Source: Pelagomonas calceolata (lineage: Eukaryota). From it: DNA of 64,000 nt. The position numbers and the translations under genes were made by a program. Shown in pieces: positions 1 to 58,716 of this stretch. Numbering within the stretch: position 1 is the stretch's first letter; each line of letters starts with the position of its first letter. The notes below the pieces were generated by a model, which saw only the letters and a list, made by a program, of their open reading frames with translations, did no database searches and was not told where the DNA came from. The stretch lies in NCBI GenBank assembly GCA_918797485.1, contig CAKKNE010000003.1, positions 2,418,001 to 2,482,000 of the forward strand. Direction: 5' to 3'.

Positions 1-328
1 CCAAGTAGCTTCTACAGAGCCGCACAGCCGCCAAGCTCAGTTCCGAACACCCCACACAAAAACACGAGGAATTCCATCACAGCCAGGTGGACGACGGCAG
101 GTCGAGACGGTCGACGGGCGCTACAGGTGCTTGCTAGCGTCCTGTCAGACACTAGCAATCACGCGGGAGCGGGAGGGGTACGGGGAACCCTGCGACGTAA
201 CTAGCCTCAGCCTCACGCGTCTCTTCAGTTGCTTTGCTTAGAGCTAGGCCGCCTAGCTACCCGGCCGCCGCGGGGCTGCTTCCGTCGAGAGCTCTTCACA
301 ATCATCAAACAACATAGCTTTACACTAC

Positions 329-1009
329 TCAGTAGTAGGCCGCGTGGAGCCAGAACTCAAGGACTTTCCGGACGAGTTCCGGCGGGAGAAGAGGCGTTTC
401 GAGGATCGACGCGATCCGCACGACGTGGGCTTGAGCGTATCTCTGGAATCCGCCGGCGTTTCTGACTCGTACGATGTACGGGTCCGTGTTATCTGTGGGT
501 ATCTCAGCGCCCGCGCGGAGAAATAAAGGCCACGTACGGCGAGGCCCTTCTTTGAGTGCAACGCGGAAAGGCGTATACCCGCTCCAGTCTCTTACATGAG
601 GAGAAGCGCCTGCGGCCAGGAGCACTTCGACGCAATTTGCACGGCTGTCCCTGCCAGCCGCAACGTGCAGTGCTGTGGTATAACCGTTTTTTGACGCAGC
701 ATCGAGATTAACGCCGCTTTGAACTAGCCACGACACCAATTCGACACTTCCACTTATAGCCGCATAGTGAAGTGGCGTGAGCCCAACAATATCGGTCGCT
801 TCCAAATTTGCCCCGGCGTCGCGAAGCAGCATGATGCAGGCCTCATGGTCGCGCGTAGCGCATTCAACATTTCGGCACAAGACATGCAGAGGTGTTCTTT
901 CCCAATCCTCATCGATATTATCGACTGTATCTGGCGGCACATCTTCCGCAAGCAACCGCCGGAGCGTCTCGACGTCAGCGTCGCGTGCGGCATCGTGTAT
1001 GGGTGCCAT
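329..1009 (-). CDS. Ankyrin-repeat protein
   Basis: Ankyrin repeats RTPLHVLC, GLTPLHYAA, TTALHVAA, GYTPFRVAL. Likely start MAPIHDAARD (ATG 1009); the ORF extends to 1204 through a short-repeat region. Confidence 0.85.
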   Translation of the reverse strand: MAPIHDAARDADVETLRRLLAEDVPPDTVDNIDEDWERTPLHVLCRNVECATRDHEACIMLLRDAGANLEATDIVGLTPLHYAAISGSVELVSWLVQSGVNLDAASKNGYTTALHVAAGRDSRANCVEVLLAAGASPHVRDWSGYTPFRVALKEGPRRTWPLFLRAGAEIPTDNTDPYIVRVRNAGGFQRYAQAHVVRIASILETPLLPPELVRKVLEFWLHAAYY

Positions 1010-1010
1010 A

Positions 1011-1142
1011 GGGTCAGACCAAGAGAGCAGCTCCCGGAGGAGGGCAGAATCGGCTCGCCCGGGGGGCTGAGGGTACCCTCGGCTGCGAGGCGCGAGCGGG
1101 TCAGACCACAGAGAGCAGCTCTTGAGGGTCAGCCAAGAGAGC
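1011..1142. repeat. Three short direct repeats gggtcag(a)cca(c)agagagc
   Basis: Copies at 1011-1033, 1098-1121 and 1126-1142, just upstream of the ankyrin ATG. Confidence 0.7.
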
Positions 1143-2156
1143 GGCCGTTGAGAGGCGCTATTTATGGACAGCGCAGCGAAGACGAGCAGCCAGAGACCAT
1201 GCAATTGCGGTGCGCCGCCGTAGCTGCCTATGCGGCGTTCTATTAGTTTGTATTAATAGCCCAGCCCCCATTGTCTGTCCGTGAAGTTAGTGTAACTAGG
1301 GTATCTCAGCGATCTCTCTGGCAACGGACGGCGACAGCCACAGGTACCTCCTCACGGATCTCTACAAAAAAATTCCCAAAAAGCCGAGTATGAATGCATA
1401 GGGGCGTAAATTCCTTATTAAATTTTGGGACAAGACACTGGCCCGGCCAGAAATGACCGCAGAAACGGCCCCAGCAGCCCCAACCAGCCTGTGCGCTGGC
1501 ACGATGGTCCCTCCGCATCCACTCTTGGGTCAGGCAGCGTTTTTATGCTCGAGTTCGTCGCACAAGGCATGCCACCAAAAACCGGTCTGTGTGCGGCGGT
1601 CGCCGCGGCCGGCGTAAAGCGTCCTCACGGATGGAAGTGAACGTCGGAAGGGCCTTGCCCCCTGCCCGCGGCGACCTCGACGACTTGGTTACGTCGCTGG
1701 TGCATGAGGGCGCGCGGTGGGCGGCTCCACGCACGGCTCGGCGCGCGGTCTTCGGACTTGGAGTAGCTAGACGCGCTACTTGGTTTCGTCACGCTGCTCC
1801 TATTGTGACGCGGGGACGCCATGCGTTTACGGAAGCCCGGAAGAGTACACGGATCGTGGCGGGCGCCGCGGCGACGATTCGCGGCCGCGATCACCCCGTC
1901 GCTCGTGAGTGGGACGCCACCCTCGTCGATTCCGTGCGGCGTCTCGTCCGACCTCACGGGCCCGTCGTATCCCGGCGCTGCGCCTCATTCGCGTCCCGGC
2001 GCGTCCGCGTCGGGCCCCTTGCAGCTGTCCGCCAGTGTGTGTGTTAATATGCCTAATTTAAGTTACATTCCACCATTACACTACACCAAGCCCAAACTAA
2101 TAGACCCGCCGTACCGGCCAGTGACACTGCCGTCCGCGGGGGCTAGCGGCGTGTAA

Positions 2157-2570
2157 GACACTAGCAAATGGAGCAAGCTTACCCGCTCCATCTGGGCGGG
2201 AGGATTTTGGTTCCTCGTGTGTTTGATAGGCGCGATCTGCGGCTTCATCGGCGCGCACATCTACAACTCGTGCCTCGTGCTGGTCTACGTCGTCTTCGCG
2301 TGGGTCTGGGTCGCGGGACTGATCCTCAACATCATCGTGGTCACGATCTTCTTCTTCGCGAACCGGCACGAGTTCTCGTGGGTCGAGGGCAGCTTCACCG
2401 CGTGGTACATCGCGTTCATGGTGTGGTCGCTGATACTGCTCGTGGTGAGAGTATACATCGCGGGCTTCGTGCACAAGTTCTTCAACGCGCTGCAGTCCGT
2501 CGGCGACGACCGCGCGAAGGAGCTCGGGGAGCACTCGAACTACGACCAGAAGTGCGTCGTGGTCCCGTAG
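2157..2570 (+). pseudogene. Multi-pass membrane protein, apparently lacking its 5' end
   Basis: Three to four hydrophobic segments with GC3-rich codons. The frame is open from a TAA at 2154 with no in-frame ATG ahead of the hydrophobic segments; an upstream exon cannot be excluded. Confidence 0.5.
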
Positions 2571-3580: not shown

Positions 3581-4303
3581 TCAGGCTCTACGGTAACGGA
3601 GATCAAAATGCCGCGCCACCCATAAAGCCTCCTGCTCCGCTTCGAACGCGACCGCCGCCGCAACCTGTGCCGCCGTCGGGGCAACGGGCAACGGGAATCG
3701 CGACGCTGGCTCGATGCGGACGCTGTCGCCCTCGTCGCCCAGCGAGACCGCCCAGCAGTACTCCTCTTCTAGGCCCGTCGCCATCACGCCCAGCCGCTCG
3801 CCGTTCTTGAAGACGGTTAGGGTGCCGGTGTCGAGGTCGAGCAGCAGGCCGATGGCGTCGCCCCGCCTCGCGTCCTGGCTCCCGGGCCAGCCCTGCCCTG
3901 GCAGGGGATTCCCTGGCCAGGGATGGCCGCCGTAGTAGTCTCTCCGCTCAACGAAGTCAGGACAGGTCTCCGGCGCTTTGGCGCCGGGGTAGCGCAGCCC
4001 ATCGCGCGCGGAGTAGAAGCAGTGGCCGTCGACATCGTACGAGTACCCTCGGTTCTCGACATCGTAGCCTGGCCGGATCAAGCCGAAGTGCACACGTACA
4101 CGGTGACGTAAGATCGTGAAGGCCGCGTAGTGCCGTCCGCTACGCATCGGGACGGCGCTCGCAGCGGTGAGGGGGACCCCACGGGCATGAAATGAGTCAT
4201 TTTCAATTCTCGTCGCCACCCCGCCGCGCTGCGACAGATCGATGAACGGGTGCGAGCGCGAGAAGATCGCCGCCGGCCTCTGCACCTCGTGCATGCGCCG
4301 CAA
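3581..4303 (-). CDS. SPRY/B30.2-domain protein, possibly 5'-degraded
   Basis: SGRHYAAFTI...GDAIGLLLDLDTGTLTVFKNGERLGV...YCWAVSL is a typical SPRY motif set. Confidence 0.7.
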   Translation of the reverse strand: MRRMHEVQRPAAIFSRSHPFIDLSQRGGVATRIENDSFHARGVPLTAASAVPMRSGRHYAAFTILRHRVRVHFGLIRPGYDVENRGYSYDVDGHCFYSARDGLRYPGAKAPETCPDFVERRDYYGGHPWPGNPLPGQGWPGSQDARRGDAIGLLLDLDTGTLTVFKNGERLGVMATGLEEEYCWAVSLGDEGDSVRIEPASRFPLPVAPTAAQVAAAVAFEAEQEALWVARHFDLRYRRA

Positions 4304-4687
4304 CCACTACTTGATAGTAGCAGCCTAGCCTAGCCACGATTCTGGCGTTGTGCGCGCGCGCCGCCCCTAGCCACCCCGCGCACCCCGGGCTGCTCGCAAC
4401 GTGCAGCGCCGCCCCTGTTGGCCCGGAAATGAGAGTTGCCCGCGTGAAAAATAGCCCAGAACACGCTGAGCACGGCCTTCAGCCTGGGGCTGCCCTGAAC
4501 GCTGCCGCGGCGCGCCGCCGGCCGGTTTTCCACGCAGGAGCTCGGTGCGCCGAGGGCCACAACGGCATGCTGGGCGAGTAGGCGATGCGTCCTGGGCGTC
4601 CTCGCACTTCAACGGGTCGAGCGCCGCGGAGCCTGGACGCTGGCTAGTGTCTTACTGCATGCTAGCTCGAATTTTTACGGTCGAAAA

Positions 4688-4883
4688 AAGAGGCCGTCGC
4701 GCATCTAATCGCACCACATAACACCGTACTTTGCTCGCAATTCCTAAGAGGCCGCGACGAGTTCTAATCGCACCACATCGAGCCAAGAGCACTTCACGAG
4801 CTCGCAATTCCTAAGAGGCCGACAACTTGGCATCGTACCACAGCCATTCAGCCAGCTGTACACAGGACAGCTGTACACAGGAC
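4688..4883. repeat. Tandem duplications upstream of the DEAD-box gene
   Basis: tctaatcgcaccacat at 4704 and 4763; gctcgcaattcctaagaggccg at 4733 and 4800; cagctgtacacagga twice at 4853-4882. Confidence 0.8.
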
Positions 4884-4886
4884 GCC

Positions 4887-7016
4887 ATGCGCCAATCGCG
4901 AGACAGCCGCAAGGCCTACCGTAGGAACAAGCAACAACAAGCCGTCGACGCCAAGGCCGCGGACGAGGCCAAATACTTCTGGCAGTGCGTGGACAGGGGC
5001 GGCGCCGCGCCGCCGCTCGCCGGCGCGCGCGAGTTGTTTGGGCAGCAGTCGACGGGCATCAATTTTGCGCAGTACGAGAAGATCCCCGTGACGCGCGGCA
5101 AGGGCACGCCGTCGAACAAAGAGATCGCGCCTTTACAATCTTTTAGGGACGTGAACGGCGTGCCGCCGTGGCTCAAGGCGACGCTTACGGGTAAAGACCG
5201 GTTGAACTACGAGACGCCGACGCCCATCCAGAAGCACACGATCCCGCTGGCCCTCGCGGGCCACGACGTCGTCGCGACGGCGCAGACGGGCAGCGGCAAG
5301 ACCGTCGCGTTTTTGCTGCCTTGTTTAACCGCGGCGAGCGCCGCGGCGAAAGAAAGAAGGAAGGCCAATCAGAAGGGCCCGGCGACGCCCTCGACCTTAG
5401 TCCTGGCACCTACGAGGGAACTCGCGACGCAGATCGCCGAGGAGTGCGCGAAGTTGTGCTTCGACGCCCCAAGACAGCAAAAGAACTGGTGCGTCTGCTG
5501 CTACGGCGGGGCCAACGCGCGGCCGCAATTGTCATTTCTGGCGAGAGGTGTCGAGGTCCTCGTGGCGACGCCGGGTCGACTCGTTGATTTCCTCGAGAGG
5601 TCGACGCAGCGCGGGCCCCTCGTCGACCTATCGAACGTGCGCTTCGCGGTGCTAGACGAGGCCGACCGCATGCTCGACATGGGCTTCGAACCGCAACTGA
5701 AAAGGATCGTGGCCTACCTGCCGTCGTCGCTCCAGCGGCAGACGCTCATGTTCTCGGCGACCTTTTCGCAAGCGGTGAAGGGTGTGGCGCAGACGTACTT
5801 GGACGGGAGTCGACTGGCGGAAGTCACGGTGGGGCGGGTCGGGTCGTCCGTGGCGAGCATCTCGCAGTTCCTGGTCGAGGCGCCGCGGAGCGGCCGGAAG
5901 CAGGACAAGTTCCCTTTGTTAAGGGACGTGTTGGTGCCCAATGAAAAAACGATAGTGTTCGTGCAACGAAAGCGGGACACGGCCTGGGTCTGTAGAGAGT
6001 TAAGAAAGAAGCTGAACGTGCGGGCCGAGGACATTCACGGGGACCGGAACCAGTCGCAGCGCGAAGCGGCGCTCGCGGCCTTCAAGGCCGGGCGCTGCGA
6101 CGTGCTTTGTGCTACGGACGTCGCCGCACGAGGGTTAGATGTGACGGACGTGCAACACGTCGTACAGTTCGACCTGCCACAAGATGAATTTGATACCTAC
6201 GTCCATAGGATCGGCCGGACGGGCCGGGCGGGGAAGACGGGGCGGGCGACGGCGTTTTTCGTGCCTGGCTACGAGACGAACCGCGGGAACCAGGATCTAC
6301 ACCGCGATTTGGTGCGGTTGTTCAAGGAGAACAAGCAGCCTTTACCATCGTGGTTCCTCGACACGCAGAACCCGCGCTCGGCGAAGAATAATGGTCATGT
6401 GGATGCGAAGCGGGCGGGCTCGTACGGCGACCGCGGCGGTGACCGCGGCGGCAACGGCTACGCGGACCGCGGCGGAAAGGGCGGCGGGCGCGGCGGCGGT
6501 CGCGGCAAGGGTTCTGATGGCGGGCGCGGCGGCCGCGGCGGCTTCGACGGCGGCCGGGGCGGCGGCCGGGGCAAGGGCAAGGGCGGCAAAGGCGGCAAAG
6601 GGCGCGAGCGCCGCTACGACGACGAGGCGCCGCTGCCTGGCACGCGCGCCGAGGCCATCCAGCGCGAGCGCGCGGCCAAGGCCAAGGCCAAGGCGCAGGA
6701 GCCCGAGCAGCCGGCCTTCCGCAACCACCGTGAGTACATCGCCTGGCTCACGAAGCAGAAGGAGGCGCAGGAGAAGCGCGACGCGGCGCCGCCGCCGGCA
6801 CCGCGCCAGAAGAAAAACGGCGCGCCGCCGCCGCCGCCGCCGTCCTTCGTCGAGAACGGCAAGGGGCGCGGCGGGCGCGGCGGCGGCCGCGGGCGCGGCG
6901 GGCGGGGCCGCGGCGGGAAGGGTGGCCGCGGCGACGCGAAGAAGAAGGTCGAGGTCATCGACGTGACGGCGCCGGCGAAGTCCCGGCGGCGCGGCAGCAG
7001 GAAGGGTGCCGAGTGA
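4887..7016 (+). CDS. DEAD-box RNA helicase (DDX3/Ded1-like) with RGG-rich tail
   Basis: Q motif TPTPIQ, AQTGSGKT, PTRELA, TPGRL, DEAD, SAT, ARGLD, HRIGRTGR; Gly/Arg-rich C-terminus. Confidence 0.95.
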   Translation: MRQSRDSRKAYRRNKQQQAVDAKAADEAKYFWQCVDRGGAAPPLAGARELFGQQSTGINFAQYEKIPVTRGKGTPSNKEIAPLQSFRDVNGVPPWLKATLTGKDRLNYETPTPIQKHTIPLALAGHDVVATAQTGSGKTVAFLLPCLTAASAAAKERRKANQKGPATPSTLVLAPTRELATQIAEECAKLCFDAPRQQKNWCVCCYGGANARPQLSFLARGVEVLVATPGRLVDFLERSTQRGPLVDLSNVRFAVLDEADRMLDMGFEPQLKRIVAYLPSSLQRQTLMFSATFSQAVKGVAQTYLDGSRLAEVTVGRVGSSVASISQFLVEAPRSGRKQDKFPLLRDVLVPNEKTIVFVQRKRDTAWVCRELRKKLNVRAEDIHGDRNQSQREAALAAFKAGRCDVLCATDVAARGLDVTDVQHVVQFDLPQDEFDTYVHRIGRTGRAGKTGRATAFFVPGYETNRGNQDLHRDLVRLFKENKQPLPSWFLDTQNPRSAKNNGHVDAKRAGSYGDRGGDRGGNGYADRGGKGGGRGGGRGKGSDGGRGGRGGFDGGRGGGRGKGKGGKGGKGRERRYDDEAPLPGTRAEAIQRERAAKAKAKAQEPEQPAFRNHREYIAWLTKQKEAQEKRDAAPPPAPRQKKNGAPPPPPPSFVENGKGRGGRGGGRGRGGRGRGGKGGRGDAKKKVEVIDVTAPAKSRRRGSRKGAE

Positions 7017-7060
7017 AGTGGTCATAAGTTCGTTTCGTTTTTAGACAGATAGATACAGGT

Positions 7061-8266
7061 TCAATAAACCTCCACGTGGTACCGCTTCTCCTTGCGGAGC
7101 GCCTTGATCCACGTCTTGAAGTCGAGGCCCCGCGCGACCGCCGCTTGTTCAAGAGCCGCCTCGATGCCCGGCTGCATGCCCTTGAGGCCGCACAAGTAGA
7201 GGTGGGCGCCGCCCGCGAGGCGCTCGAAGAGCTCGTCCGCGCGCTCCGTGAGCCGCTCCTGGACGTACATCTTCCCTCCAGTGGAAGTGGTCTGCTCCCT
7301 TGAAATCGCGAGTGTGAGCTCGAACTGGCCCGGCTTGTTCGCCGCGGCCTGCTCCCAGAGCTCCGGGTACAACACCGAGTCCGACGTCGGCCCGCCGAAC
7401 AATAACCAGGCCCGGCCCTCGAACGCCGCCGCCGCGGGCGTCCTTTCAATAAAGAGACGCTGAATGAACCCCCGGAAGGGCGCGACGCCCGTGCCCGTCG
7501 CGACCATGATGATGTCGGCCTCGTCGTCGTCGGGCAGGAGCATGCCTTTCCCGACGGCGCCCGTGATTTTCACGGAGGCGCCGGGCTTGGAGTCGCACAG
7601 AAAGTTCGAGCAGACGCCCTTCTTCGCTGGGTCCTCCGCACCGGTCTCGGGGTCCACATAAACGGCTCTACGGACGCAGAGCGACACGGACGTGCCGCCG
7701 CCGTCGTCCCCGTACCGCGACGACGCGATGGAGTAGAGCCGCTGCTGGTGGGGCTTGCCCGTCTTCGCATCAATGCCGGGCGGCAGCACGCCTATTGATT
7801 GGCCCTCGACGTAGGGCAGCCGCCCGCCCGTCTGCAGGGCCACGTGGCAGATCTCGCCCGGCGCGTCCGGGCCGATGGCGCGCTTCACGCTCATGACCGT
7901 GCTCTCGAGCGGCTGCGTCGGCTTGAACTTCGAGGCCGGCGTCTGCGGGTACTCGAGGAACGTGAGCTCGGGGCCCGGCGCGGCCGCGGCCGGTGCTGGT
8001 ACCGCCGCCGCATTTGAGGAGTAGATGGGCACGTCCGTGCGCTGGGCGAGCTCCTGCTCGAGCGCCGCGATCTTCTCGGCGTAGGACGCGTAGACCTCCT
8101 CCTTGGCCTTGCGCACGCTCTCGAGCTTGAGCGCGTGCTGCGCGGCGATCATGTCGGCCATCGCGTCGGCGGCGTCGAACTTCAGGGAGGTGCCGCCTTT
8201 GGAGAGGGACGGCGGCGGCTGCAACGCGCTGGCGAGCCCCGCAAGCGCGACGAGGAGACGCATCAT
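7061..8266 (-). CDS. petH: Ferredoxin-NADP+ reductase, plastid-type
   Basis: RLYSIASS, GVCSNFLC, MVATGTGVAPF, YLCGLKGM, C-terminal HVEVY; N-terminal signal peptide. Confidence 0.95.
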   Translation of the reverse strand: MMRLLVALAGLASALQPPPSLSKGGTSLKFDAADAMADMIAAQHALKLESVRKAKEEVYASYAEKIAALEQELAQRTDVPIYSSNAAAVPAPAAAAPGPELTFLEYPQTPASKFKPTQPLESTVMSVKRAIGPDAPGEICHVALQTGGRLPYVEGQSIGVLPPGIDAKTGKPHQQRLYSIASSRYGDDGGGTSVSLCVRRAVYVDPETGAEDPAKKGVCSNFLCDSKPGASVKITGAVGKGMLLPDDDEADIIMVATGTGVAPFRGFIQRLFIERTPAAAAFEGRAWLLFGGPTSDSVLYPELWEQAAANKPGQFELTLAISREQTTSTGGKMYVQERLTERADELFERLAGGAHLYLCGLKGMQPGIEAALEQAAVARGLDFKTWIKALRKEKRYHVEVY

Positions 8267-8474
8267 AGCTGAGAGCGTCCTAATGTGCCGCGCCACGGCT
8301 TACAAGCAGCAAATATCAAGGCGTTCTCTCGCTGTGTTTTGAAAGCTGATGGTATGGTATAGGTATAGGTAAGGGGTAAGGTATAGATAGGGACGCTTGG
8401 AGTTCAACGAATGACTTTAGCCTAGACATAGGGAGGGAGAGGGGTGCGACAGGGAGAAGACAGACAGGACGAGC

Positions 8475-9075
8475 TCAGGACCACGGGCACGACGCGCAGA
8501 CGGCCGGCCGGAAGATCCAGAGGATGATCGCCGCGATGACGGCAGACGTCGGGATGGTCAGGATCCAGGACACGAGGATCTTCCCGAGCATGGACCACTG
8601 GACGTGCTTGCAGCCGAGCGAGGCCAGCGCGACGGCCGTCACGGCGCCGATCTGGCAGTGAGTGGTAGAAACGGGCTGCTCCTGGATGGTGGCGATGACG
8701 ACGGACAGCGTCGAGCCGAACTCGATGCACCAGGCCGTGTGGAAGTCGACCGTCGCGATCTTGGACCCGACGGTGCGGATCACGCGCCAGCCGAGCGACC
8801 AGACGCCGAGCAGCACGAAGAAGCCGCCCACGGCCATGATCCAGACCTGTGTGGAAATCGGCCAGTGAGTTAGGTTATCTGAGCAGACGCAGCTACGGAG
8901 ACAACATCGCGTCGATGGCGTGGGGCGCCCGAAATTTGATTTCCACACAGATCCAGACGGGCGTCTCCGGCTGGTCGCACGAGTCGAGGCCGTTCTGGTA
9001 CGTGCCGAGCGTCGCCGAGAAGGCCGCCGTCGCGTTCGCCGTGTCGTTCGCGCCGTGGGCGAAGGACTGGACCCA
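8475..9075 (-). pseudogene. C-terminal part of a PiT/SLC20 phosphate transporter (intron 8847-8958)
   Basis: After splicing: QSFAHGANDTANA...ETPVWIMAVGG...GWRVIRTVG...PVSTTHCQIGAV...SWILTIP. An in-frame TAG lies about 10 codons upstream and no N-terminal PiT half is visible before CFAP52. Confidence 0.8.
8847..8950. mobile_element. Introner (non-autonomous TIR DNA element forming intron 8847-8958)
   Basis: TIRs ctgtgtggaaatc (8847-8859) and gatttccacacag (8938-8950); TSD atccagac at 8839-8846 and 8951-8958. On the gene strand the GT comes from the TSD and the AG from the TIR end. Confidence 0.92.
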
Positions 9076-9709
9076 CAGTCGAGCTCGAATCGGCCGGGTT
9101 TTCTAGGCCTCCCAGATATCGATGATATTGATACCTGGTGGGAACTCCCGACGACCTTCGGAGCCGTGGCATCGGCAGCTGGCGAGCCCATCACCCGCGG
9201 GCGCGCGACGACCGCGAACAGCGCAATGTGCTCAGTTAGACCCAGCCACAGGTAACGCACCTCCCATCGGCTAGAAAAGCCCACGTGAAGACCTGAGACC
9301 AAGCGGATTACTTAAACTCTAGGATAAATCGGAAAGGAAAGCAACCAGGACACAGAGCTGCCCAGGCAACGCTGGGAGATGGATCCCCCGCCGCGGACCG
9401 CCGGGCGACCCTGTACGCGGATGAACGCAGAAATAGTGTAGCTACGCTACAGGGGCAACGCCGCGGACGTCACGGTCGACCAGGTCGTCTGGCCCCACGG
9501 TAAGCGTAGAGCACGAGCTCGTGCGCCGCTTGAGGCGAGCCTGCTACGGTGCGAGGACTACTGAGACTGCTGCGGCTTGTCGGGTTTTTACTACAAGCTA
9601 CGCTACATTATGCCATAGCGCGACCGGCGGGGCAGCTAACGAAAAGCGCCGGCCCCAGCGCGTCCAAGGGAGCAGCAGTGCGAAGGGGGCAGCGACCGGG
9701 GCACCGACC

Positions 9710-13528: not shown

Positions 13529-13586
13529 TGTAATACTAACACGCACGGGGACAGGGGGTAGGCGCTGCTCTCACGCGGGGCGCGCT

Positions 13587-15537: not shown

Positions 15538-15948
15538 GGTGCCTTGTGACGGCAGCCCGCGGGCCGCTGTTTCGGCTTATGTACCTTGTGGGCAGCCTCG
15601 TTGTCGAGGCTAGTGGCGCTATCGTTGCATGGCGATGATTCTTGTGTGGGGTTTCGGGATTGCTGTGTCGGGCGAGGACTCTGTCCGGGCACGGTTTCTA
15701 GTGTCTTGCATGCCGCTAGCCCTCGATTCTGAATCGCGCTGCGCGCTTGCTATCTCTGGCGCGAGCTGCTGATTCGCTTGCTGATTCGCTGTTCTAATCA
15801 CCGCACCAGCACGCCGCTTGAGTTTCACGCGCTGGCGTAGCCTACCTGGCAAGACAGCGAGCCAGCCACCCCTTTGCCGCACCGCGCGTACCCGCAGCGG
15901 TGCGCGCCGGCAGCTAGAACTGCGTTCAACAACACCTAAACACGTAAA

Positions 15949-19622: not shown

Positions 19623-19998
19623 GTCGCCGCGTTGTCCCTCCCGCTTTTCTGTGTCCGACGGCTCTAAGCATAGCTACTGTTCTTTTTTGATGATCAACGC
19701 GACGAGTGCCACCTGCGATTGAGGCGACGTCGTCATCAGCCCGCGGTCTGCTCGTTTGCTAGTGTCTTACATGCCGCTAGCCCTAGCGTTCAAGCTTTCG
19801 CAGGCCAGCCTGCTCCACTATCCAGCTTCCAGCCGGAAGCGCAAGCGGAGAGGCTCTTATTTGTGCCTGTCCTCGCTGCGAGACATCGAAGAAGCGGCGC
19901 GAACGCGTCCTATAGCCAAAACCCAGGAGGCCCTCTGCCAGCGGATACGAAGTCCCTGCGCGCGCACGCCGTCAGAGACCACAAAAAGGCGTCTGACC

Positions 19999-20688: not shown

Positions 20689-20708
20689 GTGAATTGTTGT
20701 TGCATTGC

Positions 20709-21017: not shown

Positions 21018-21266
21018 ATGAAGAAGAGACGACGCGTAAGACGCCGAGCGCCTGGAGCGGGAGCAGGCGCCCTTCCGGCCGTTCCCGCCGCTGTGGATTC
21101 GCTTTTTACGGGTGGTCGCGGCGGCTTTATTCGTGGTGATGATCCAGGCGGACTGGACGCAACGAAAACTGCGCGACTACTTCCTGCGGCCGCTCGCACG
21201 CATCACGAACCGCATGTCACCACGCGGCTACCAGACTTACGACTGGGAGGAGTAATACACAACAAC

Positions 21267-23693: not shown

Positions 23694-24039
23694 TTTTTTT
23701 TAATTGCTGCTTGGACTAGCTTTGCATCAAATGCTGCCCCTTGCTATTTTGTTTGTTTCTCCTTGCAACTACGCCGTCGCAAGGGTTAGTCTAGCGTCCG
23801 TGATCGCTTAAATAAACAAAAATAGCTGCCCTTGCGGCTGCCCTTGATTTTTCGGCCGGTTTGTAGCTAGCTAGTGTGTTACAGCAGCTAGGTCTCGCGG
23901 ATTAAAGGGACGTCGTGTCCTGGAGTTAGCACGGCGCAGCCGCCACAGGGTTTACTTTACTGGAGATTCATCGTATCAATCACGAGGAAGAGCTGCGCCG
24001 CCGACGAGCATCGCTGCGGTAGCAACCACTGACTGCAGC

Positions 24040-34844: not shown

Positions 34845-35218
34845 AAGGTACTACCCTTGTAAAACATTTTTTTTTGGCTTTAATTATTTTGACTCTGGAG
34901 CTAGCGGCGCGAGGCACTAGCAGACAAGCCGCTGGAGAGCAGCACCATTGCACGGCTGTACTCCTAACGCAAACGAGCAATTCCTCGTGAGCGATCGTCT
35001 GCGCGTCGCACCGACGTCGTTGGAGCACGCTACGATACCGCCGTGCGTCTCCGGCCGCGCACAGCCGCACCCCACCCGAGACAGCGATCCCACTCACGCC
35101 GCAAAGCGTGCGGTTGAGCAGCGAAATTCGGACCGGGTCGCGTCGATAGCGTACAAGCCACCTCCATACCGCGCGCAAGTCTAACCAACCGCAGCCTCCG
35201 CGGGGCCGAGAGACCGTC

Positions 35219-40477: not shown

Positions 40478-41107
40478 CGACTGGCGGTTTCTCTGGTGCT
40501 GCGCGTCGGCACCGCTTCTCGGCGTCGATTTATGCGGCTTTCTGGAGTGTGTTTTTGGCCTGGCCGCGTCTGACTGCGGCCTGAGGTTGTGTGGCTGGAA
40601 TGAGCTCTGTGCTTTTGGCTAGTGTCTCACGGCTAGCTAGTTCTTTGGAGCTCCATCGAAGTCGACCCACGGAGCAATCAGATCACACGCCCAGAACCCC
40701 GGCCTCGAAGCATCGCTGGTCTGCCACACCCAAAGAGCTACTAGGAATCGTTTGGTGGTGCCACCGTCCGGCAAAAGGACCGTCGTGAGGCTGCCCAATC
40801 ATCGTACCGCGAGCGTAGCACGCCGTTTCGCGGTACCGGGTTGCTGCGGCACGCGTTACCGCTCTGGCTGCCCGGCGACGTAAGGGTAGGCCGCCGCACT
40901 GTGGTACTGGGGGCTGCACTGCTACGCCGTCGCCGCAGCTAAGCCATCGTTGACAGCCACCGTCCTGTGGCAAAAGCGCACGGCAAGGACCATCGCACGT
41001 CAGGCTGCCAACCTAGGTTGCCGTACCGCGGTACCGGATTGCCGCGGCGAAACGCGGTGCTCTAGGTCAGCCCTACACCACAACACAAAAACAACAAGCA
41101 AAAAAGG

Positions 41108-43927: not shown

Positions 43928-44260
43928 GGTCGCGACTGCAGATGTCGTGCGCAGCGCGGTTTCTTGCACGCGTTCGAAAAATTCACAAATACGGCCAGCG
44001 TAGATATACTCAGAATGCAAATTTGTGCGCACTACACTGTGTTTATCAATGAATTCCAAAAAATCACAGCTAGCGGCATGTAAGACACTAGAAAACGCTT
44101 GGTCTTGCCTTTGCGTGCGACGTGTTGCGTGGCAAGCTTGCTAAAGTCACCCGTTTAACAGCTCATCGAAGCATCAAAGCGAGACCGCCACGCATTGCAG
44201 CCTGCGAGCGACCAGCACCAGCGCCACACCAGAGAGCTGCAACCTCAGCCGTGCACAAGC

Positions 44261-44667: not shown

Positions 44668-44987
44668 GTTTTAGGCTTCTATGCGTATCTTCACTTCGTA
44701 GCCGCGGAAACCCGTCCACGACCATGCCCTACGCACCCCGGGAGCGGCTCCGAGGGCTCCGCATTGCTAGCGGCGTGTAAGACACTAGGCATCCGCCGCA
44801 AGCGCGCGGCACCGCTCCATCTGAGGACGCTGCGCGCAACGGGGCTTCTAGGGATCGATTCCTGCGAGCGCTAAAGATCAGGCAGCCGTCCCAGCGCAAC
44901 TGCAACCGCTGCGACGCCGCAACGCCATAACACAGCCGGAGAGCGCATTCCTGATTTAAACTCAGACGGCAGACGCGCGGCACAAGG

Positions 44988-47900: not shown

Positions 47901-48063
47901 GGGCGGCGGCTGCTGTAGTCTGGACAACTTTCGGACATTGTGCACGCCGTGCCACCAGAAGGAGACGAATGCCCTGCGCCAGCGCCTCGTCGCGCGGAAG
48001 AACGCGGCGGCGGCGGCGGGGACGCGGGACCTGCGGTCGTTCTTCGCTGTTACGGGGAAGTGA
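44988..48063 (+). CDS. ZRANB3: ZRANB3-like SNF2 annealing helicase/HNH endonuclease; intron about 45737-45998
   Basis: [42 protein letters not shown]-like DIRSFF, RanBP2 finger [10 protein letters not shown]...[21 protein letters not shown]...RTLCTPCH. Confidence 0.9.
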
Positions 48064-48496
48064 GTGTTTGTGTAATGTTCCTGGTTTAACTTTCTGTGGT
48101 ACCTGTCGCGTCGATAACCGTAGCCGTCAGTGGAGCCGGACCTGCGGCCCGCGGGTCCTGTTTTTTTTTTTGGCCCTCCTTTCGAGGCCTCGGGAGTCGT
48201 ATCAGACGGGCTCTTAGCCCTCGCGGCGGCCTCGAGAGGTATCTTGTCATCTTGCCAGCTCGTGTTCTGCCTCGCCACACACTAGACAGCGGCCGGCCGG
48301 CTCTCCCGCATCCACCCGAGGTGCAGCCCGATTGCGCTCCTTTGACCCCATCCCTGGGACCGCACAGCCTCCAGCGGCTCCACAAAGGCCCCAGCTCCCG
48401 ACCTCCCAGAAGATTGGGGCTGCGCGACCTCAAAAAGCTCCTCCGTGAAACAGTCTCCCAGAGACGGGACTTGCCGCGCCGACACAGCCAACCAGC

Positions 48497-49165
48497 ATGT
48501 CCGAGCTCTCCGTCTCCCCGCCCCGCTCGCCGCGGTCGCCGCGGAGCGTCGGCTCGCGCAGCGTGACCATTTCATTGGACAGCCCGAAGGCGTCGCACAC
48601 GGTCAAGCTCTCGCTGCCGGCGTCCATGGACGCCGAGCCCGTGGCGCGCGTCGCCGAGCACTTCGCCAAAAGTTATAATGAAGCCCACCCCGGCGAGCCG
48701 CCCATCAAGCCCAACCGTCTCCGATTGTCGTCCGACGCCGACCGTCGATTAGTAGATTTGAAGTCTCCGGTTGGCGCCGCGGTGAAGGATGGCAGCGCCT
48801 ACACGTTCTCGGAGCAGGAAATCGAGCAGCAGGCGTCGCCTCAAGAGCAAACACCCCCGCCGCTGCCGCCGCGGGAACTACCATTCCCGCGGCGCTGCCG
48901 CGTCGTCGGCCGCGGGCTGGTGCTGCGGGCCTCGCCGGAGACGATCGCCGATAGGTTGGCCGAGTTCCCCTTCGGCGCGGAGGTGGTCGTAAGGGAAGCG
49001 CGCGCGCTCGCGGACGGCTCCGTGCGCGTGCGCTGCGCGCCCGAGGCGCTCCTGCCGGGCGGCGCGGCGCCGGTGGTGTACGACGAGACGGGCCGCTGGC
49101 CCTGCGACGGCTGGGCGCCGGGCCGCGTACTCGCAGAGCTCTCGGGCGAGCCGTTCCGGTTGTAG
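48497..49165 (+). CDS. Hypothetical protein
   Basis: ATG-initiated 222-aa ORF with coding-like codon use; possible ubiquitin-like and SH3b-like regions are unverified. Confidence 0.55.
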   Translation: MSELSVSPPRSPRSPRSVGSRSVTISLDSPKASHTVKLSLPASMDAEPVARVAEHFAKSYNEAHPGEPPIKPNRLRLSSDADRRLVDLKSPVGAAVKDGSAYTFSEQEIEQQASPQEQTPPPLPPRELPFPRRCRVVGRGLVLRASPETIADRLAEFPFGAEVVVREARALADGSVRVRCAPEALLPGGAAPVVYDETGRWPCDGWAPGRVLAELSGEPFRL

Positions 49166-49401
49166 CCTCCCGCCATGCGTCTATAGAAGGTTTGCATTTT
49201 AACTTCTCCTCGTTGCGGTCTAGGACTAGCGACGCGTGCACACAGCTGCGTGCACCGCTAGCGCCAGTAAGACACTAGAAACAAAGGCACCGAGCTACAT
49301 CGCCCGCAGCGGTGCAAAAATCGGCGCTGCGTGGCACGTTACAAAGGCAAACAGTCTCCACGCATCAGTGCGTGCGTGCTGCCGAGGAAGCTGGCCTGCG
49401 G

Positions 49402-50682
49402 ATGCTGCTCGCCATGCTGCTGCTGCGGCAGGCCGCGGCGCTGCAGCGCTGCACGCCGTCGCTGCGGCGCACCGTTACGCGCATGGCCGCATCGAAGAGC
49501 GTGACAATCAAGCGCGGCAAGGCGCGATTATTCAGGGACGGCAACCCTCTCGTCTACGGTGGCGCGGTCGAGCGGACGAGCGGGGACGTGAGTAGGGGAG
49601 ACGCCGTCGAGGTCGTGGATGGCGCCGGGAACAACATCGGCTGGGGCTTCTACAACCCGGACTCGATGTATAGAGTAAGACTGCTGCCCGGTCCGATGCA
49701 GGACGATCCAATGCAAGCTGTCCGATCATTGATCGAGACCGCTTGTGAACGGCGGAGCGCACTGAACCTACCCAGTGAAGCCACGTCCGCCTTCCGCCTC
49801 ATTAATTCCGAGGGCGACGGGTTGAGTGGCCTGACGGTCGACGCGTACGGCGCTCATTTAGTCTGTAGTATAAGTGCCGCCTGGGCCGAGGCGCGACGTG
49901 TTGAGATCACGGCGGCGCTGGAGGAAAGCTACTCCACATTAATCGGTGAAAAGCCGCAAATCATCTGGCGCCCCGCCGTCGCTCGGTTAAGGAGCGAGGG
50001 CCTAGAGATAGAAGCGGACGACGACGCTGACAATGACGCCGTCGAGGCTACAGAATCAAGTCTCGTCTACGAGGTGGATGTGTGGGGCCAGAAGACGGGC
50101 TTTTACTGCGACCAGAGAGATAATCGAAATTTCCTCGCGCCGCTCTGTGCCGGGAAGCGCGTCTTGGATTTGTACTGCTACTCCGGGGGCTTCGCTTTGT
50201 CCGCGGCGAAACATGGCGCATCACAATGCCTCGGCGTCGACTCGAGTCGGAGAGCCGTCGAGCTCGCCCAACGCAATGCCGAGAGGAACGCGCTTGATGG
50301 AATCTGTAGCTTTGTTTCGAGCGACGTGTCTGCGTTTCTGAATGCCAACACTGATGAATACGATGTGGTGGTCTGCGACCCCCCGAAGCTCGCGCCGTCG
50401 GTACGAGATTTACCTCGCGCAAAACGGAAGTACCAGAAGATCAACGCTCTGGCACTAAACGCGGTCAAGCCCGGCGGCCTTTTGCTGACGTGTTCTTGTT
50501 CTTCTGCCATGACGACCTCCGAGGGCGCGTTTCTCGCCATGTTGAGGGAGGCCTCCAAAGACGCGGGCAAGCGCCTGACGGTCCTGCGGACGGCCGGCGC
50601 GGCGGCGGACCACGTCCTGCACCCGGCGTTTCCCGAGGGGGCGTACCTCACGGCGGCGCTCGTGCAGGTCGTGGACCGGTAG
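49402..50682 (+). CDS. RlmI-like SAM-dependent RNA methyltransferase (PUA + MTase), organelle-targeted
   Basis: GNPLVYGGAV, RLINSEGDGLSGLTVD, GQKTGFYCDQRDNR, VLDLYCYSGGF, VVCDPPKL, TCSCS. Confidence 0.9.
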   Translation: MLLAMLLLRQAAALQRCTPSLRRTVTRMAASKSVTIKRGKARLFRDGNPLVYGGAVERTSGDVSRGDAVEVVDGAGNNIGWGFYNPDSMYRVRLLPGPMQDDPMQAVRSLIETACERRSALNLPSEATSAFRLINSEGDGLSGLTVDAYGAHLVCSISAAWAEARRVEITAALEESYSTLIGEKPQIIWRPAVARLRSEGLEIEADDDADNDAVEATESSLVYEVDVWGQKTGFYCDQRDNRNFLAPLCAGKRVLDLYCYSGGFALSAAKHGASQCLGVDSSRRAVELAQRNAERNALDGICSFVSSDVSAFLNANTDEYDVVVCDPPKLAPSVRDLPRAKRKYQKINALALNAVKPGGLLLTCSCSSAMTTSEGAFLAMLREASKDAGKRLTVLRTAGAAADHVLHPAFPEGAYLTAALVQVVDR

Positions 50683-55564: not shown

Positions 55565-56734
55565 CTAACTTGACCGGCACAGTTGCTCGCTTCCGCAGCA
55601 TTTCTCGGTGGTCGGCTCGGGATACTCGCTCCCGACGTCCCTCCACGCGCCTTGTACACGCGTCCCGTAGTGCACCTTGTACACGTCGAGCGGCGCATCT
55701 TTGAATTTATCGAGGGCTTCCCGAACCGCCTCCGTAATCCAGGCGTCCCGGTTCCCGAAGGCGCCGCCGCCGAGACTTGTTAGATAGACGGCCTGGCGGC
55801 GCCCCGCGTCGCGGGCCTTCAACGCACCAACAGCAAGCGTCGCTTCGTACGCCGCTCGCAACACCAGTCGCGCGAAGGGCTCCCACTCGGCCGACCGCGC
55901 CGCGCGCCCGTAGGCCACGGGCAGCGCCGACGCGTAGACCTGGCAGACGCGGTGCGTGTGCGGCGGCCGCGCCTGCGTGTTCCAGTGGACGCCGACCCGC
56001 AGCGCGGCCTCCGCCTCTTCAATAAGTTGCGGCGACGCATTTAGTGTGAGCGCGAGGTCCTTGATGGAAGACGACGACGACGGCATCGCGTAGCCGTTCT
56101 GCATCGTCCAGTAGCACTCGTCCGTATTCCCCAGCACGCGGCCGACGTCCGCCAGCAAATCGATCTGCGTGTCGCCCTGCCCCGTTTCATTGACGAGGTG
56201 GTTCCGGAAGACCGTGCCCCCCGGGCACGCCAGGGCGCACTTGGGGCCTTGCGTCGGATCGTTGCAGTAGAAGGCGATGCCCTCCCGTGGACTGACGCCC
56301 GGGCCGACCATCTCCAGCGCATTGAATTGCGAGGCGGCCTGGAAGACGGCGCCGGCGTTCCGCTCGTCGAGGATCAATGGCTCGACGCCGGTCGGCGTGG
56401 GCAGATGCTTAAAGCGCAAGCCCCCAGTTTCGCCATCGCCGAGCTCCGTGCGCAGCTCCGCTAACGAGGGCGTGGACCAGCGGCCCACGAAATGTCGTTT
56501 AAACTTCGGCGCGCCGTCGACGCACAGGACCTCGCCCTCCATGCGAAACTTTGCCCGATTCTCGCGGTAGGAGCTGCCCTCCCGGAAGCCGAAGAGCTCC
56601 TCGAACCATAATATGCTCGATGCTCCCGCCGGCATGTCGCTCCAGAACTGGCGCTGCCCCCTGTAGCGCGGCGCACGCAGCGTTTTGGCTCGGCGCAGCG
56701 TGTGTACGACTTGTGCGCGGATGGCGCAGGACAT
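55565..56734 (-). CDS. Uncharacterised protein, possibly macrodomain/PARG-like
   Basis: FQAASQFNALEM, DPTQGP, AAYEATL, VYLTSLGGGAFGN; the last resembles the macrodomain diphosphate-binding loop. Start 56734 or 56635. Confidence 0.6.
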   Translation of the reverse strand: MSCAIRAQVVHTLRRAKTLRAPRYRGQRQFWSDMPAGASSILWFEELFGFREGSSYRENRAKFRMEGEVLCVDGAPKFKRHFVGRWSTPSLAELRTELGDGETGGLRFKHLPTPTGVEPLILDERNAGAVFQAASQFNALEMVGPGVSPREGIAFYCNDPTQGPKCALACPGGTVFRNHLVNETGQGDTQIDLLADVGRVLGNTDECYWTMQNGYAMPSSSSSIKDLALTLNASPQLIEEAEAALRVGVHWNTQARPPHTHRVCQVYASALPVAYGRAARSAEWEPFARLVLRAAYEATLAVGALKARDAGRRQAVYLTSLGGGAFGNRDAWITEAVREALDKFKDAPLDVYKVHYGTRVQGAWRDVGSEYPEPTTEKCCGSEQLCRSS

Positions 56735-56880
56735 GTACCGGGCGCCTTCCAATGGTGCGGCGCTCTGGGCAGCGGTGTGGCGCCAAGATTGTGCAAATCG
56801 CACTGGAAGACTGGAACTCTCCTCACGCCCGCATACGCGCGCGAGCAAGGCGTCGTGAATAGTAGGAATAACATATACAC

Positions 56881-58611
56881 TCACTTACTCTTGTACGGCC
56901 GCAATCTACCGGCGAGGTCCCAGGGCACCGCCGCGACCAAGTCGGTGGCCGCGTCGCCATGAGCCTCGGAAAACACCCGACCGCGATTTAGAATTTCGTC
57001 CCGCACGCCGCCATACGACGCATCATCATAAGGTAGGGTCACGCGCACGTCCAGCAACGCGTCCGCGAGAATGCCCGCAAGCTGCTCTCTCAAATAACCT
57101 AAATCTCCAGCCGCAGCAGACCCGACGGCCACGTTCTTCGAGACGGCCGCCTTCTCTCTTAAGGAAGAGGAATCATGCATGGCGTCCAACTTGTTGTAGA
57201 AGACGAGCTTCGGGGTCCCTCGACATCCGAGCGCGTCCAGCTCTTCGTCGACGACCTGGCACCTCGCGCGGATGATATGGCGAGGCGCCGACGCGTCGAC
57301 GACGTGCACGATGACGGCCGCATTGCTGACCTCTTCTAACGTGGCTCGGAACGCGGCGACGACTTGCGCCGGGAGCTTGGACACAAACCCGACCGTGTCC
57401 GTGACGAGGGCCGTCTGGTCCGCGACTTGGACTCTACGAGTCAACGGATCTAGCGTCGCGAAGACCTTGTCGTCCACACTAAAGCGATTGTCCTCGTCGT
57501 CCGCGTCCAAGGATTCGACTTCTTCATTTACGAGTGCCGCTAGGAGTGACGACTTGCCCGCGTTCGTGTAGCCAACTAGCGCCACCGTCGGCGCGCCCTG
57601 CCTCGCTCGTCGCCTCCTCTGTAAATCGCGATGCGTCTCGAGCGCCCGTATTTTTCTGTTCAAGCGAGCCGCTCGGTCGCGCATCGTCTTCTGGTCCACG
57701 TCCATCGTTCTACGTCGCTCCTGTTTGTTCGTGCCCAGGGAACCGCCCGTTTCGCGCTCGTCGTCGATGCCGCGGAACAGACCGCCCTGCCGCGGCGTCT
57801 GATACAGTGTTAACGCAAGAGCTACTTGCAAACGTCCCGACCTAGTAGTAGCTCGCTTCGCGAAGATATCTAACACGACAGCGGTCCGATCCAACACTCG
57901 GACAGCCACAACAGGAGACTCCCCTCTCCTCCGCAGCTTCCTATCCTCCTGGTTGATCTTCGCCCGAGCCGCCGCCTGCGATAGATAGGGCGACTCCTGG
58001 CGCAACTCAAAAACCCGAGCCTGCTTCTCCAAAGCTTTCTTTTTTTTGTCAATTTTTTTCGACCGCGGTTGGAGCTCGTCCCTGGAGGCCACTTGCAGCC
58101 GTTTCTCGAGGTTCTTCTGCTGGTCCGGCGTGAGCTCGTCGTCGAAGACGACCGCTACTTCTTCGGCGCCCTCTTCTACTAATTCTTCAATCGCTTCTCG
58201 GATTCTATCTACGCCTTGCGCATCGGTGTACGTCTGCGGGTCGGGCTGCCGCAGTCGTCGTCGTAGTGGTTGACCTACAATGTGTAGACCGGCGCCTTTG
58301 GCGAGCTCGGCGAGTTCGCTGACGGAGGCGTCAAAATCTAAAGCGGCGCCGGGCAGGTCGACGCCGACGAGGAGCGTGGCGGCGCCCTCGACGTTGGGTA
58401 TGTCGGCGTAGCTCGCCGCGAGGTCCGCGTCGGCGACGAAGGCGTACGGGTCGTCGTCGGCTTTTTTTGGGCTGCTTTGTAATTCAAATGAATCTCCTTT
58501 GGAGCTGGCGCGGCGCAGGGGCGTACTCAATGCGAATTTTTGAGTTGCGGGCGGCAAGAGGGCGTTACATAGATGTACTAGACCGAGTACTGCAACGAAT
58601 AGACGCCACAT
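56881..58611 (-). CDS. hflX: HflX GTPase, plastid-targeted
   Basis: FDDELTPDQQKNLE, LDRTAVVLDIFAKRA, VGYTNAGKSSL, FATLDPLTR, DTVGF, FRATLEE, NKLD; signal peptide. Confidence 0.92.
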   Translation of the reverse strand: MWRLFVAVLGLVHLCNALLPPATQKFALSTPLRRASSKGDSFELQSSPKKADDDPYAFVADADLAASYADIPNVEGAATLLVGVDLPGAALDFDASVSELAELAKGAGLHIVGQPLRRRLRQPDPQTYTDAQGVDRIREAIEELVEEGAEEVAVVFDDELTPDQQKNLEKRLQVASRDELQPRSKKIDKKKKALEKQARVFELRQESPYLSQAAARAKINQEDRKLRRRGESPVVAVRVLDRTAVVLDIFAKRATTRSGRLQVALALTLYQTPRQGGLFRGIDDERETGGSLGTNKQERRRTMDVDQKTMRDRAARLNRKIRALETHRDLQRRRRARQGAPTVALVGYTNAGKSSLLAALVNEEVESLDADDEDNRFSVDDKVFATLDPLTRRVQVADQTALVTDTVGFVSKLPAQVVAAFRATLEEVSNAAVIVHVVDASAPRHIIRARCQVVDEELDALGCRGTPKLVFYNKLDAMHDSSSLREKAAVSKNVAVGSAAAGDLGYLREQLAGILADALLDVRVTLPYDDASYGGVRDEILNRGRVFSEAHGDAATDLVAAVPWDLAGRLRPYKSK

Positions 58612-58716
58612 CGTGTCGGAGAACACGAGCCAGTGCTTGCGTCGGCATGCGCCACTATCTAGCGGTCGTAAGACACTAGGAATCACAATAGAGGTATGCG
58701 CCCGCCGCCGATGAAT

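What the first reader, a model, noticed from the sequence alone, without database searches (positions are those of the whole stretch)
134..58679. CTAG-bounded 20-22 bp motif repeated 12 times, mostly near gene starts
Seen: consensus CTAGCGGCRTGTAAGACACTAG at 134-155(+), 2143-2164(+), 4644-4665(-), 15698-15719(-), 19759-19780(-), 23871-23891(-), 34901-34920(+, degenerate), 40619-40640(-), 44070-44091(+), 44767-44788(+), 49258-49278(+) and 58659-58679(+). None lies in a confidently called exon. Most are about 50-300 bp from a start codon, several between divergent genes (GRK/CAX, GT77/RCC1, AlkB/small gene), and orientation does not track the neighbouring gene. The GTAAGACACTAG half is best conserved, and the best copies hold a mini-hairpin (gtgt-aag-acac). 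Inference: a general bidirectional promoter or nucleosome-positioning element bound by a dimeric factor, or the footprint or site of a tiny mobile element or recombinase. I do not recognise it as a described motif.
Basis: partly seen in the sequence, partly recalled or inferred. Interest (0 to 1): 0.85.

Follow-up and report, generated by a model that had tools for sequence, protein, structure and literature searches.

The report
Two-way promoter signal of Pelagomonas alga
A 22-base DNA motif recurs between genes of the abundant ocean alga Pelagomonas (an estimated 4,000-6,000 copies per genome), lies 6-34 bases outside the RNA 5' ends mapped on either side of it, and is likely the landing site of an unknown protein that opens promoters and sets where transcription starts in both directions.

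Summary
The motif is real. All 12 copies are at the stated coordinates, and a matrix built from independent metagenome copies finds exactly these 12 (shuffles: 0.1). The organism is Pelagomonas calceolata. The motif is widespread in pelagophyte DNA (about 8,500 metagenome stretches estimated), ends sharply at about 29 bp, and has unrelated flanks. None of 150 sites lies in predicted coding DNA. Seven RNA 5' ends next to six copies lie 6-34 nt from the motif edge, on both sides and whatever the motif's orientation. Upstream ATGs are depleted outward on both sides, and a CpG trough sits 138-158 nt away on both sides. The motif persists at homologous promoters of diverged lineages, once apparently flipped. 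No sign of a mobile element was found (no body, no target duplication); the hairpin is not conserved. Best reading: the binding site of a general promoter-opening factor, working like yeast Reb1/Abf1/Rap1 or vertebrate BANP/NRF1, at perhaps a third to a half of gene starts. The protein is unidentified and no chromatin or CAGE data were available. I found no description in print.

The parts
134..155 (+). Motif copy (41.5 bits); 173 nt past the 3' end of an ankyrin gene, left neighbour outside the window
   Evidence: no RNA laid here
2143..2164 (+). Motif copy (42.7 bits); 22-28 nt before the point where a 5'-truncated membrane-protein gene piece begins
   Evidence: no RNA laid here
4644..4665 (-). 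Motif copy between divergent SPRY-domain (-) and DEAD-box helicase (+) genes; helicase RNA contig begins at 4675, 9 nt away
15698..15719 (-). Motif copy between divergent protein kinase (-) and Na/Ca-exchanger (+) genes; exchanger RNA contig begins at 15734, 14 nt away
19759..19780 (-). Motif copy between tandem + genes; DnaJ RNA contig begins at 19787, 6 nt away
23871..23891 (-). Motif copy (21 nt) between divergent sugar-transferase (-) and RCC1-repeat (+) genes
   Evidence: inside the stretch laid but no 5' end was listed
34901..34920 (+). Weak motif copy (20 nt, 17.3 bits), 298 nt upstream of a DENR/SUI1 gene
40619..40640 (-). Motif copy (21.6 bits) between divergent trypsin-like protease (-) and unknown (+) genes
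44070..44091 (+). Motif copy at the centre of a two-way promoter: 2OG-Fe(II) oxygenase RNA (-) ends 5' at 44051 (18 nt away), small-gene RNA (+) piles at 44116 (24 nt away)
44767..44788 (+). Motif copy in the untranscribed gap between tandem genes; SNF2-family RNA begins at 44813/44820 (24/31 nt), upstream RNA ends at 44663-44669 (about 98 nt away)
49258..49278 (+). Motif copy (21 nt) in the gap between tandem genes; PUA-methyltransferase RNA begins at 49304/49313 (25/34 nt), upstream RNA ends at 49177/49189 (68-80 nt away)
58659..58679 (+). Motif copy (21 nt) upstream of an HflX-type GTPase gene (-), between tandem - genes

Best explanation
The motif is a roughly 29-bp, two-part DNA element that lies directly upstream of RNA 5' ends on both of its sides, and it is likely the binding site of an abundant sequence-specific protein that would keep the promoter open and fix where RNA polymerase II starts in either direction. 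Shown: sequence, sharp limits, exclusion from predicted coding DNA, orientation independence, closeness to seven RNA 5' ends, persistence at homologous promoters. Inferred: that a protein binds it; that a strong right module (GTAAGACACTAGCAAG) and a weaker left module (AGCTAGCG) on a 3-5 nt variable linker are read by two DNA-binding modules; that binding excludes nucleosomes and sets the register seen as a CpG trough about one nucleosome length away.
For: 0 of 150 sites inside predicted coding segments, which cover 67% of the DNA. Of 191 gene ends facing a metagenome site, 141 are 5' ends, 72 on the left and 69 on the right; median 176 nt to the ATG, n=133. RNA 5' ends at 9, 14, 6 and 18 nt on the motif's left and 24, 24-31 and 25-34 nt on its right, although ATG distances run from 123 to 229 nt. 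In the two tandem gaps with both ends mapped, the motif is near the 5' end (24-34 nt), not the 3' end (68-98 nt). Without any annotation, outward-pointing ATG is half as common as inward at 20-130 nt (216 vs 441; ten control trinucleotides 0.69-1.22), on each side separately; 55 vs 183 on 140 arms facing gene starts, 39 vs 52 on 52 arms facing gene ends. CpG trough at 138-158 nt on both sides, 0 of 1000 rotations as deep, absent when anchored on the ATG or on another promoter word. Motif 19/22, 21/22 and 21/22 identical at three homologous promoter pairs whose 90-nt flanks are 47-74% identical. Neighbouring genes are functionally mixed.
Against: No binding protein, chromatin map or CAGE data. 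Six of the seven 5' ends are ends of assembled RNA contigs (outermost coverage, not mapped start sites); only one is a raw-read pile (12 molecules at depth 43), and for that gene two contigs reach into the motif (44080, 44070). Only 6 of 12 copies have RNA evidence, and the tool listed only part of its rows. Untranscribed gaps are short: if the motif merely avoided transcripts, the chance of lying within 35 nt of the 5' end is 0.29 and 0.38 in the two fully mapped gaps. The motif holds stop codons in 3 of 6 frames, which explains part of its absence from coding DNA. Per base, divergent and tandem spacers hold equal densities (40 in 26.4 kb, 31 in 20.4 kb), and 4 sites lie in predicted convergent spacers. 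Six genes with mapped 5' ends have no full motif within 70 nt, so it is not needed by all promoters. No periodic CpG signal in coding DNA. The homologous pairs were both picked by the search pattern, which inflates their identity.
Confidence: 0.72

Rival explanations
1. Boundary or roadblock element: a bound protein separates neighbouring transcription units (stops read-through, insulates), and closeness to start sites is a by-product of the compact genome.
For: It sits in untranscribed gaps; equal density in tandem and divergent spacers and 4 sites in predicted convergent ones; yeast general regulatory factors also act as roadblocks (PMC5052057, abstract); long asymmetric sites with a variable spacer recall CTCF (recalled).
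Against: In tandem gaps it is nearer the 5' end than the 3' end; convergent spacers, where a barrier is most needed, hold the fewest (4 in 7.5 kb; 0 of 11 in the window); RNA starts close to it on both sides at 44070.
Confidence: 0.12
2. Footprint or relic of a tiny mobile element with a CTAG target duplication, or a site-specific recombinase site, perhaps later used as a promoter.
For: CTAG at both ends; thousands of copies; one apparently inverted copy at a homologous position (L037/L075); one gene breakpoint 22-28 nt from copy 2143; paralogous MYND-family genes sit at 66-275 nt from a copy with unrelated flanks.
Against: No shared sequence beyond -2/+5; flank duplications of 4 nt or more in 48 of 146 sites vs 43.1 +/- 5.3 expected, outward inverted repeats 8 vs 7.3; GCTAGC 36 vs 48.5 and CTAGCAA 12 vs 12.9 in non-coding DNA; conservation is uneven by position, not a uniform decay; length varies 20-23 nt and the centre is conserved, unlike recombinase sites (recalled); the flanks are orientation-linked, so the core does not flip freely between its CTAGs.
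Confidence: 0.06
3. Replication-origin or recombination-hot-spot signal that happens to sit in open promoter DNA.
For: Abundance, orientation independence, and anecdotal breakpoints beside copies.
Against: One site per 5-8 kb is dense for origins (recalled); the outward ATG depletion and RNA ends are transcription-linked. Not tested directly.
Confidence: 0.05
4. RNA-level signal: a splice acceptor or micro-intron (GTAAG...CTAG), or a copy of the U2 snRNA stem-loop IV acting as a hairpin.
For: It contains GTAAG and ends in TAG; its reverse complement resembles U2 stem-loop IV at 38782-38805.
Against: It lies mostly outside transcripts and no listed joint uses it; no strand preference (20 vs 16, p=0.62); the U2 likeness is reached 0-4 times per shuffled window; folding is weak, -0.3 to -3.5 kcal/mol in 15 of 16 folds.
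Confidence: 0.02

Closest known systems
Yeast general regulatory factor sites (Reb1, Rap1, Abf1)
   Same: Abundant intergenic sites at functionally mixed genes, orientation-independent; Abf1's site is bipartite (recalled). Roadblock role read in the abstract of PMC5052057.
   Different: No sequence likeness (yeast motifs recalled); longer site with tolerated indels; RNA 5' ends 6-34 nt away, closer than I recall for yeast; binding and nucleosome depletion untested.
Vertebrate chromatin-opening factors (BANP, NRF1) that specify start sites
   Same: [quoted passage not shown]
   Different: Other lineage and motifs; shown there by depletion and CAGE, inferred here from sequence and RNA-seq only.
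Oomycete core promoter elements INR (YCAYTYY), FPR (MWTTTNC), DPEP (SAASMMS)
   Same: Stramenopile, TATA-less promoters with lineage-specific elements near the start site (PMC3599244, abstract, section 12 and passages).
   Different: Those are 7-16 nt, biased to the forward strand (ratios 1.8-5.9) and at or after the start site; this one is 22-29 nt, unbiased and upstream on both sides.
Toxoplasma AP2XI-5 element GCTAGC
   Same: GCTAGC is the left half-site here; in Toxoplasma it peaks 84 bp upstream in 12.3% of promoters (PMC13734140, passages).
   Different: There a stand-alone 6-mer with a late cell-cycle programme; here GCTAGC alone is not enriched (36 vs 48.5) and works only within the long motif.

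Membership tests
General-regulatory-factor / chromatin-opener site | Abundant, intergenic, at functionally mixed genes | tested here: met
General-regulatory-factor / chromatin-opener site | Orientation-independent, upstream of RNA 5' ends | tested here: met
   seven RNA ends, six from contig ends
General-regulatory-factor / chromatin-opener site | Conserved at homologous promoters | tested here: met
   3 pairs plus one inverted; pairs were chosen by the pattern
General-regulatory-factor / chromatin-opener site | Bound by a sequence-specific protein | not testable with these tools
   no binding data available
General-regulatory-factor / chromatin-opener site | Nucleosome-depleted region with phased flanking nucleosomes | tested here: inconclusive
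   CpG trough at 138-158 nt; no long-range period in coding DNA; no MNase/ATAC data
Classical directional core element (TATA, oomycete INR/FPR/DPEP) | Forward-strand bias and sequence match | tested here: not met
   72 vs 69 and 20 vs 16; consensus differs from those
MITE / non-autonomous DNA transposon | Shared body with terminal inverted repeats | tested here: not met
MITE / non-autonomous DNA transposon | Target-site duplication outside the element | tested here: not met
   48 of 146 vs 43.1 +/- 5.3; CTAG itself as the duplication would leave a 14-nt element
MITE / non-autonomous DNA transposon | Empty alleles in other strains | tested here: inconclusive
   the one DNA run laid (X10) had no differences in its listed pieces and spans copy 44767 intact; no diverged strain was laid
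Helitron 3' end | Hairpin, then CTRR, then T of the AT target | tested here: not met
   base after the right CTAG is T in 0 of 124; rule recalled
Tyrosine-recombinase site (loxP/FRT/dif type) | Fixed-length spacer between two inverted arms | tested here: not met
   lengths 20, 21, 22, 23 nt in 2, 41, 95, 3 sites; rule recalled
U2 snRNA stem-loop IV derivative | Likeness above chance | tested here: not met
   score reached 0-4 times per shuffled window, 15 shuffles
ApiAP2 (AP2XI-5) GCTAGC element | Stand-alone GCTAGC enriched in promoters | tested here: not met
   36 vs 48.5 +/- 5.4

The most novel reading that the evidence does not exclude
The element is a TATA-replacing two-way core promoter: one asymmetric factor overlaps the zone where the pre-initiation complex normally sits, launches polymerase 10-35 nt away on both sides regardless of its own orientation, sets the first nucleosome at a fixed distance, and can be flipped in evolution without loss of function, serving up to half the genes of one of the most numerous eukaryotes.
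Probability: 0.2. Interest if true: 0.8.

Novelty: new variant of a known kind. Interest (0 to 1): 0.57.

Why it matters
I found no promoter element described for pelagophytes. This gives a concrete, abundant one in a globally dominant picoalga, with a direct route to its factor (pull-down with a 29-bp bait) and to short two-way promoters for genetic tools. It is also a handy marker of pelagophyte DNA in metagenomes. If the site is as close to both start sites as the RNA ends suggest, it tests how very compact eukaryotic genomes start transcription without TATA boxes.

Tried and rejected
No whole genome was held, so genome-wide counts are extrapolated. Viral contigs: 0 matches to the strict pattern; 25 to a relaxed one, all in contigs of 32-46% GC and lacking the left-half consensus at the right spacing. 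Prokaryote genomes: 11 matches; the five genomes searched hold one match each; of three contigs fetched, two look chimeric and one looks like eukaryote DNA. Rfam finds only U2 in the window. U2 stem-loop likeness is at chance. Helitron end, MITE, recombinase site, splice acceptor and mini-hairpin were rejected as listed. No 10-bp AA/TT periodicity next to the motif; no nucleosome-scale CpG period in synonymous sites (P=0.31); a broad whole-arm CpG period was marginal (4 of 200). No functional enrichment evident among 146 scanned proteins, judged by eye. RFX X-box and Drosophila M1BP motif likenesses were recalled and not tested with a library. Literature: 0 papers hold GTAAGACACTAG; of 147 papers holding any of three sub-words, the 30 listed were unrelated and held only the 9-mer; one search gave one irrelevant listing; 'motif' and 'promoter' occur 0 times in the main texts of PMC9481584, 10.1101/2024.10.30.620910 and PMC13284251. 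In five supplements of PMC9481584 'CTAG' occurs 0 times; one was cut, one scanned PDF was unreadable; bioRxiv supplements and subscription papers were not visible. Earlier scan findings: nothing on this genome or sequence.
Full report
Observation. The consensus finds 6 sites at up to 3 mismatches against 0.01 by chance. A matrix trained on 124 metagenome matches, independent of the window, scores exactly the 12 at 17-46 bits; the next is 9.8 and shuffles give 0.1 sites at 12 bits or more. A window protein piece is 100% identical to a public protein named Pelagomonas calceolata on a 5.39-Mb contig, the contig length also given for three other window proteins. The published genome has 32.4 Mb, 16,667 genes and 63.6% GC (PMC9481584, passages).

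Extent. One locus was checked by protein search: its nearest named relatives are pelagophytes. Among 126 distinct matches, conservation stops 2 nt left and 5 nt right of the core: AG-CTAGCG-KCMT-GTAAGACACTAG-CAAGC. In 26 sites (the 12 window copies plus 14 metagenome sites that miss the search pattern) the two CTAGs are kept in 23-26 of 26 per position, the rest of the right half in 20-26, the flanks in 8-21 (the matrix itself favours the CTAGs). Length varies from 20 to 23 nt. The site is a pseudo-palindrome: CTAG-CG(G/T)C(C/A)T on the left faces CTAG-TGTCTT on the other strand. Density is 0.19 per kb in the window and 0.12 per kb in long loci (16 extra sites in 134 kb), which extrapolates to about 4,000-6,000 sites. 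At about 1.5 gene starts per site that would be a third to a half of genes. Viral and prokaryote collections hold only chance-like or contaminant matches.

Position. With a codon model trained on 26 window ORFs that I chose, 0 of 150 sites fall in coding segments, which cover 67% of the DNA; stop codons in three of six frames explain part of this. Of 138 metagenome sites, 40 lie between divergent genes, 31 between tandem, 4 between convergent, 41 have a gene on one side only and 22 on neither. Facing ends are 5' in 141 of 191, split 72 left and 69 right. In the window 5 of 11 divergent, 5 of 26 tandem (introns included) and 0 of 11 convergent intervals hold a copy; copies 134 and 2143 fell outside these intervals. 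Convergent spacers are short (median 58-69 nt), so class alone proves little. Neighbouring genes are a functional mixture.

RNA. Two stretches were laid (43501-49700; 4301-24300), covering 7 of 12 copies; 5' ends were listed for six copies and seven transcripts. Gaps from the motif edge are 9, 14, 6 and 18 nt on its left and 24, 24-31 and 25-34 nt on its right. At 44070 both directions are seen: 44051 on the minus strand and a pile of 12 molecules at 44116 (depth 43) on the plus strand, about half the gene's depth. Against: six ends are contig ends, two contigs of that small gene reach into the motif, and the tables were cut. If the motif were placed at random in its non-coding interval, all six copies within 35 nt has probability about 1e-6; if it were merely kept out of transcripts, the chance is 0.29 and 0.38 in the two fully mapped gaps. 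Six genes without the motif also have mapped 5' ends; one has the half-site ACACTAG just upstream. An annotation-free test agrees with the RNA: ATG pointing away from the motif is depleted at 20-130 nt (216 vs 441), significantly on each side at 40-100 nt, more than ten control trinucleotides, and only on arms facing gene starts. So 5' leaders begin close to the motif in both directions.

Spatial register. On 74 non-coding arms CpG falls to 5.5 per 100 nt at 138-158 nt from the motif edge, on both sides (6.0 and 4.6 against about 11-12), with a rise of CA; 0 of 1000 rotations reach this depth, and it vanishes when anchored on the ATG or on GGCTGCCC. I noticed it first and then tested it on the same data; the test corrects for position but not for choosing CpG. 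The distance is about one nucleosome, and periodic linker methylation by DNMT5 is known in algae (PMC9246332, passages), but I found no period further into coding DNA (P=0.31). It could also be a downstream element tied to the start site, or a second start zone.

History. Three homologous promoter pairs keep the motif (19/22, 21/22, 21/22) while 90-nt flanks are 47-74% identical; coding identity is 82-89% where measured. Both members were picked by the pattern, so this shows age rather than measuring selection; old sites that still match the consensus this well imply selection (inference). In L037/L075 the motif lies about 90 nt beyond the same gene's conserved 5' block but in opposite orientation; the far flank is only marginally homologous (score 35 vs shuffle maximum 34). 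No transposon hallmark was met.

Mechanism. The simplest reading is a site for an abundant factor with two DNA-reading modules on a flexible linker, or a pseudo-symmetric dimer. It would hold the short intergenic gap open and let polymerase II start 10-35 nt away on whichever side a gene lies. It works like yeast general regulatory factors and like vertebrate chromatin-opening factors that bind closest to the start site, but membership needs binding and chromatin data that I could not obtain. It fails the tests for oomycete core elements and for the stand-alone AP2XI-5 word. Confidence 0.72; boundary element 0.12; mobile or recombinase relic 0.06; origin or hot spot 0.05; RNA signal 0.02.

Novelty. 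No paper in the library holds the core 12-mer, and three pelagophyte papers do not mention promoters or motifs in their main text. Subscription papers and some supplements were not visible. I rate it a new variant of a known kind, interest 0.57: a known class of element, but long, two-part, unusually close to both start sites, and apparently undescribed for this lineage.

Noticed in passing
window 38627-38820 (+) and about 34730-34845 (+): A U2 snRNA gene and a second, 3'-half U2-like fragment whose stem-loop IV has a different but still pairing stem.
   Followed up: partly
window 2187-2570 (+): Only the C-terminal 127 residues of a 227-aa protein (P0167) are present; its N-terminal part was not found in the window or loci. 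Homology starts 22-28 nt after motif copy 2143, where a start site is predicted.
   Followed up: partly
window 58698-58894; L039:3117-3209, L063:837-926, L067:2169-2293, L115:187-273: An 80-100 nt non-coding repeat family that lies 20-130 nt downstream of a motif copy in five places, possibly a small element or RNA.
   Followed up: no
non-coding DNA of the window and loci, e.g. window 23735, 23826-23845, 28455: A second promoter word, GGCTGCCC/GGGCAGCC, is nine-fold enriched (67 vs 7.4 in shuffles) with no fixed distance from the motif.
   Followed up: partly
window 44789-44794; L057, L059, L061, L098, L103, L105: A sub-class of copies continues with GCATCC or its reverse complement GGATGC directly after the right CTAG, sometimes followed by a third CTAG.
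   Followed up: no
window 44738-44766; L016, L040, L051, L071, L097: A companion upstream element (GGGCTCC, often followed by CGCG-TTTAG/AAAAT-CGCG) precedes some copies.
   Followed up: no
window 32691-32770 and 34312-34775; L010, L056, L082, L119: Copies of an expanded MYND-finger gene family share homology only to about 40 nt upstream of the ATG and sit 66-275 nt from a motif copy with unrelated flanks, as if inserted at existing promoters.
   Followed up: partly
L029:1250-1299: Two motif copies face each other 8 nt apart.
   Followed up: no
L138:1850-4100, L143:1-170, L142: Pelagophyte-like DNA carrying the motif inside contigs of prokaryote genome bins: two apparent chimeras and one apparent contaminant contig.
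   Followed up: partly
L146, L147, L150-L153, L161-L163, L165: Ten AT-rich viral contigs share one conserved CTAG-bounded word in nearly the same context; unrelated to the algal motif as far as seen.
   Followed up: no
window 8880-8950, 14885-15000, 30290-30365, 35320-35625, 45737-45998: Introns built from repeated GTCGATGGCG words, resembling introner elements; splicing of 45737-45998 is shown by RNA joints.
   Followed up: no
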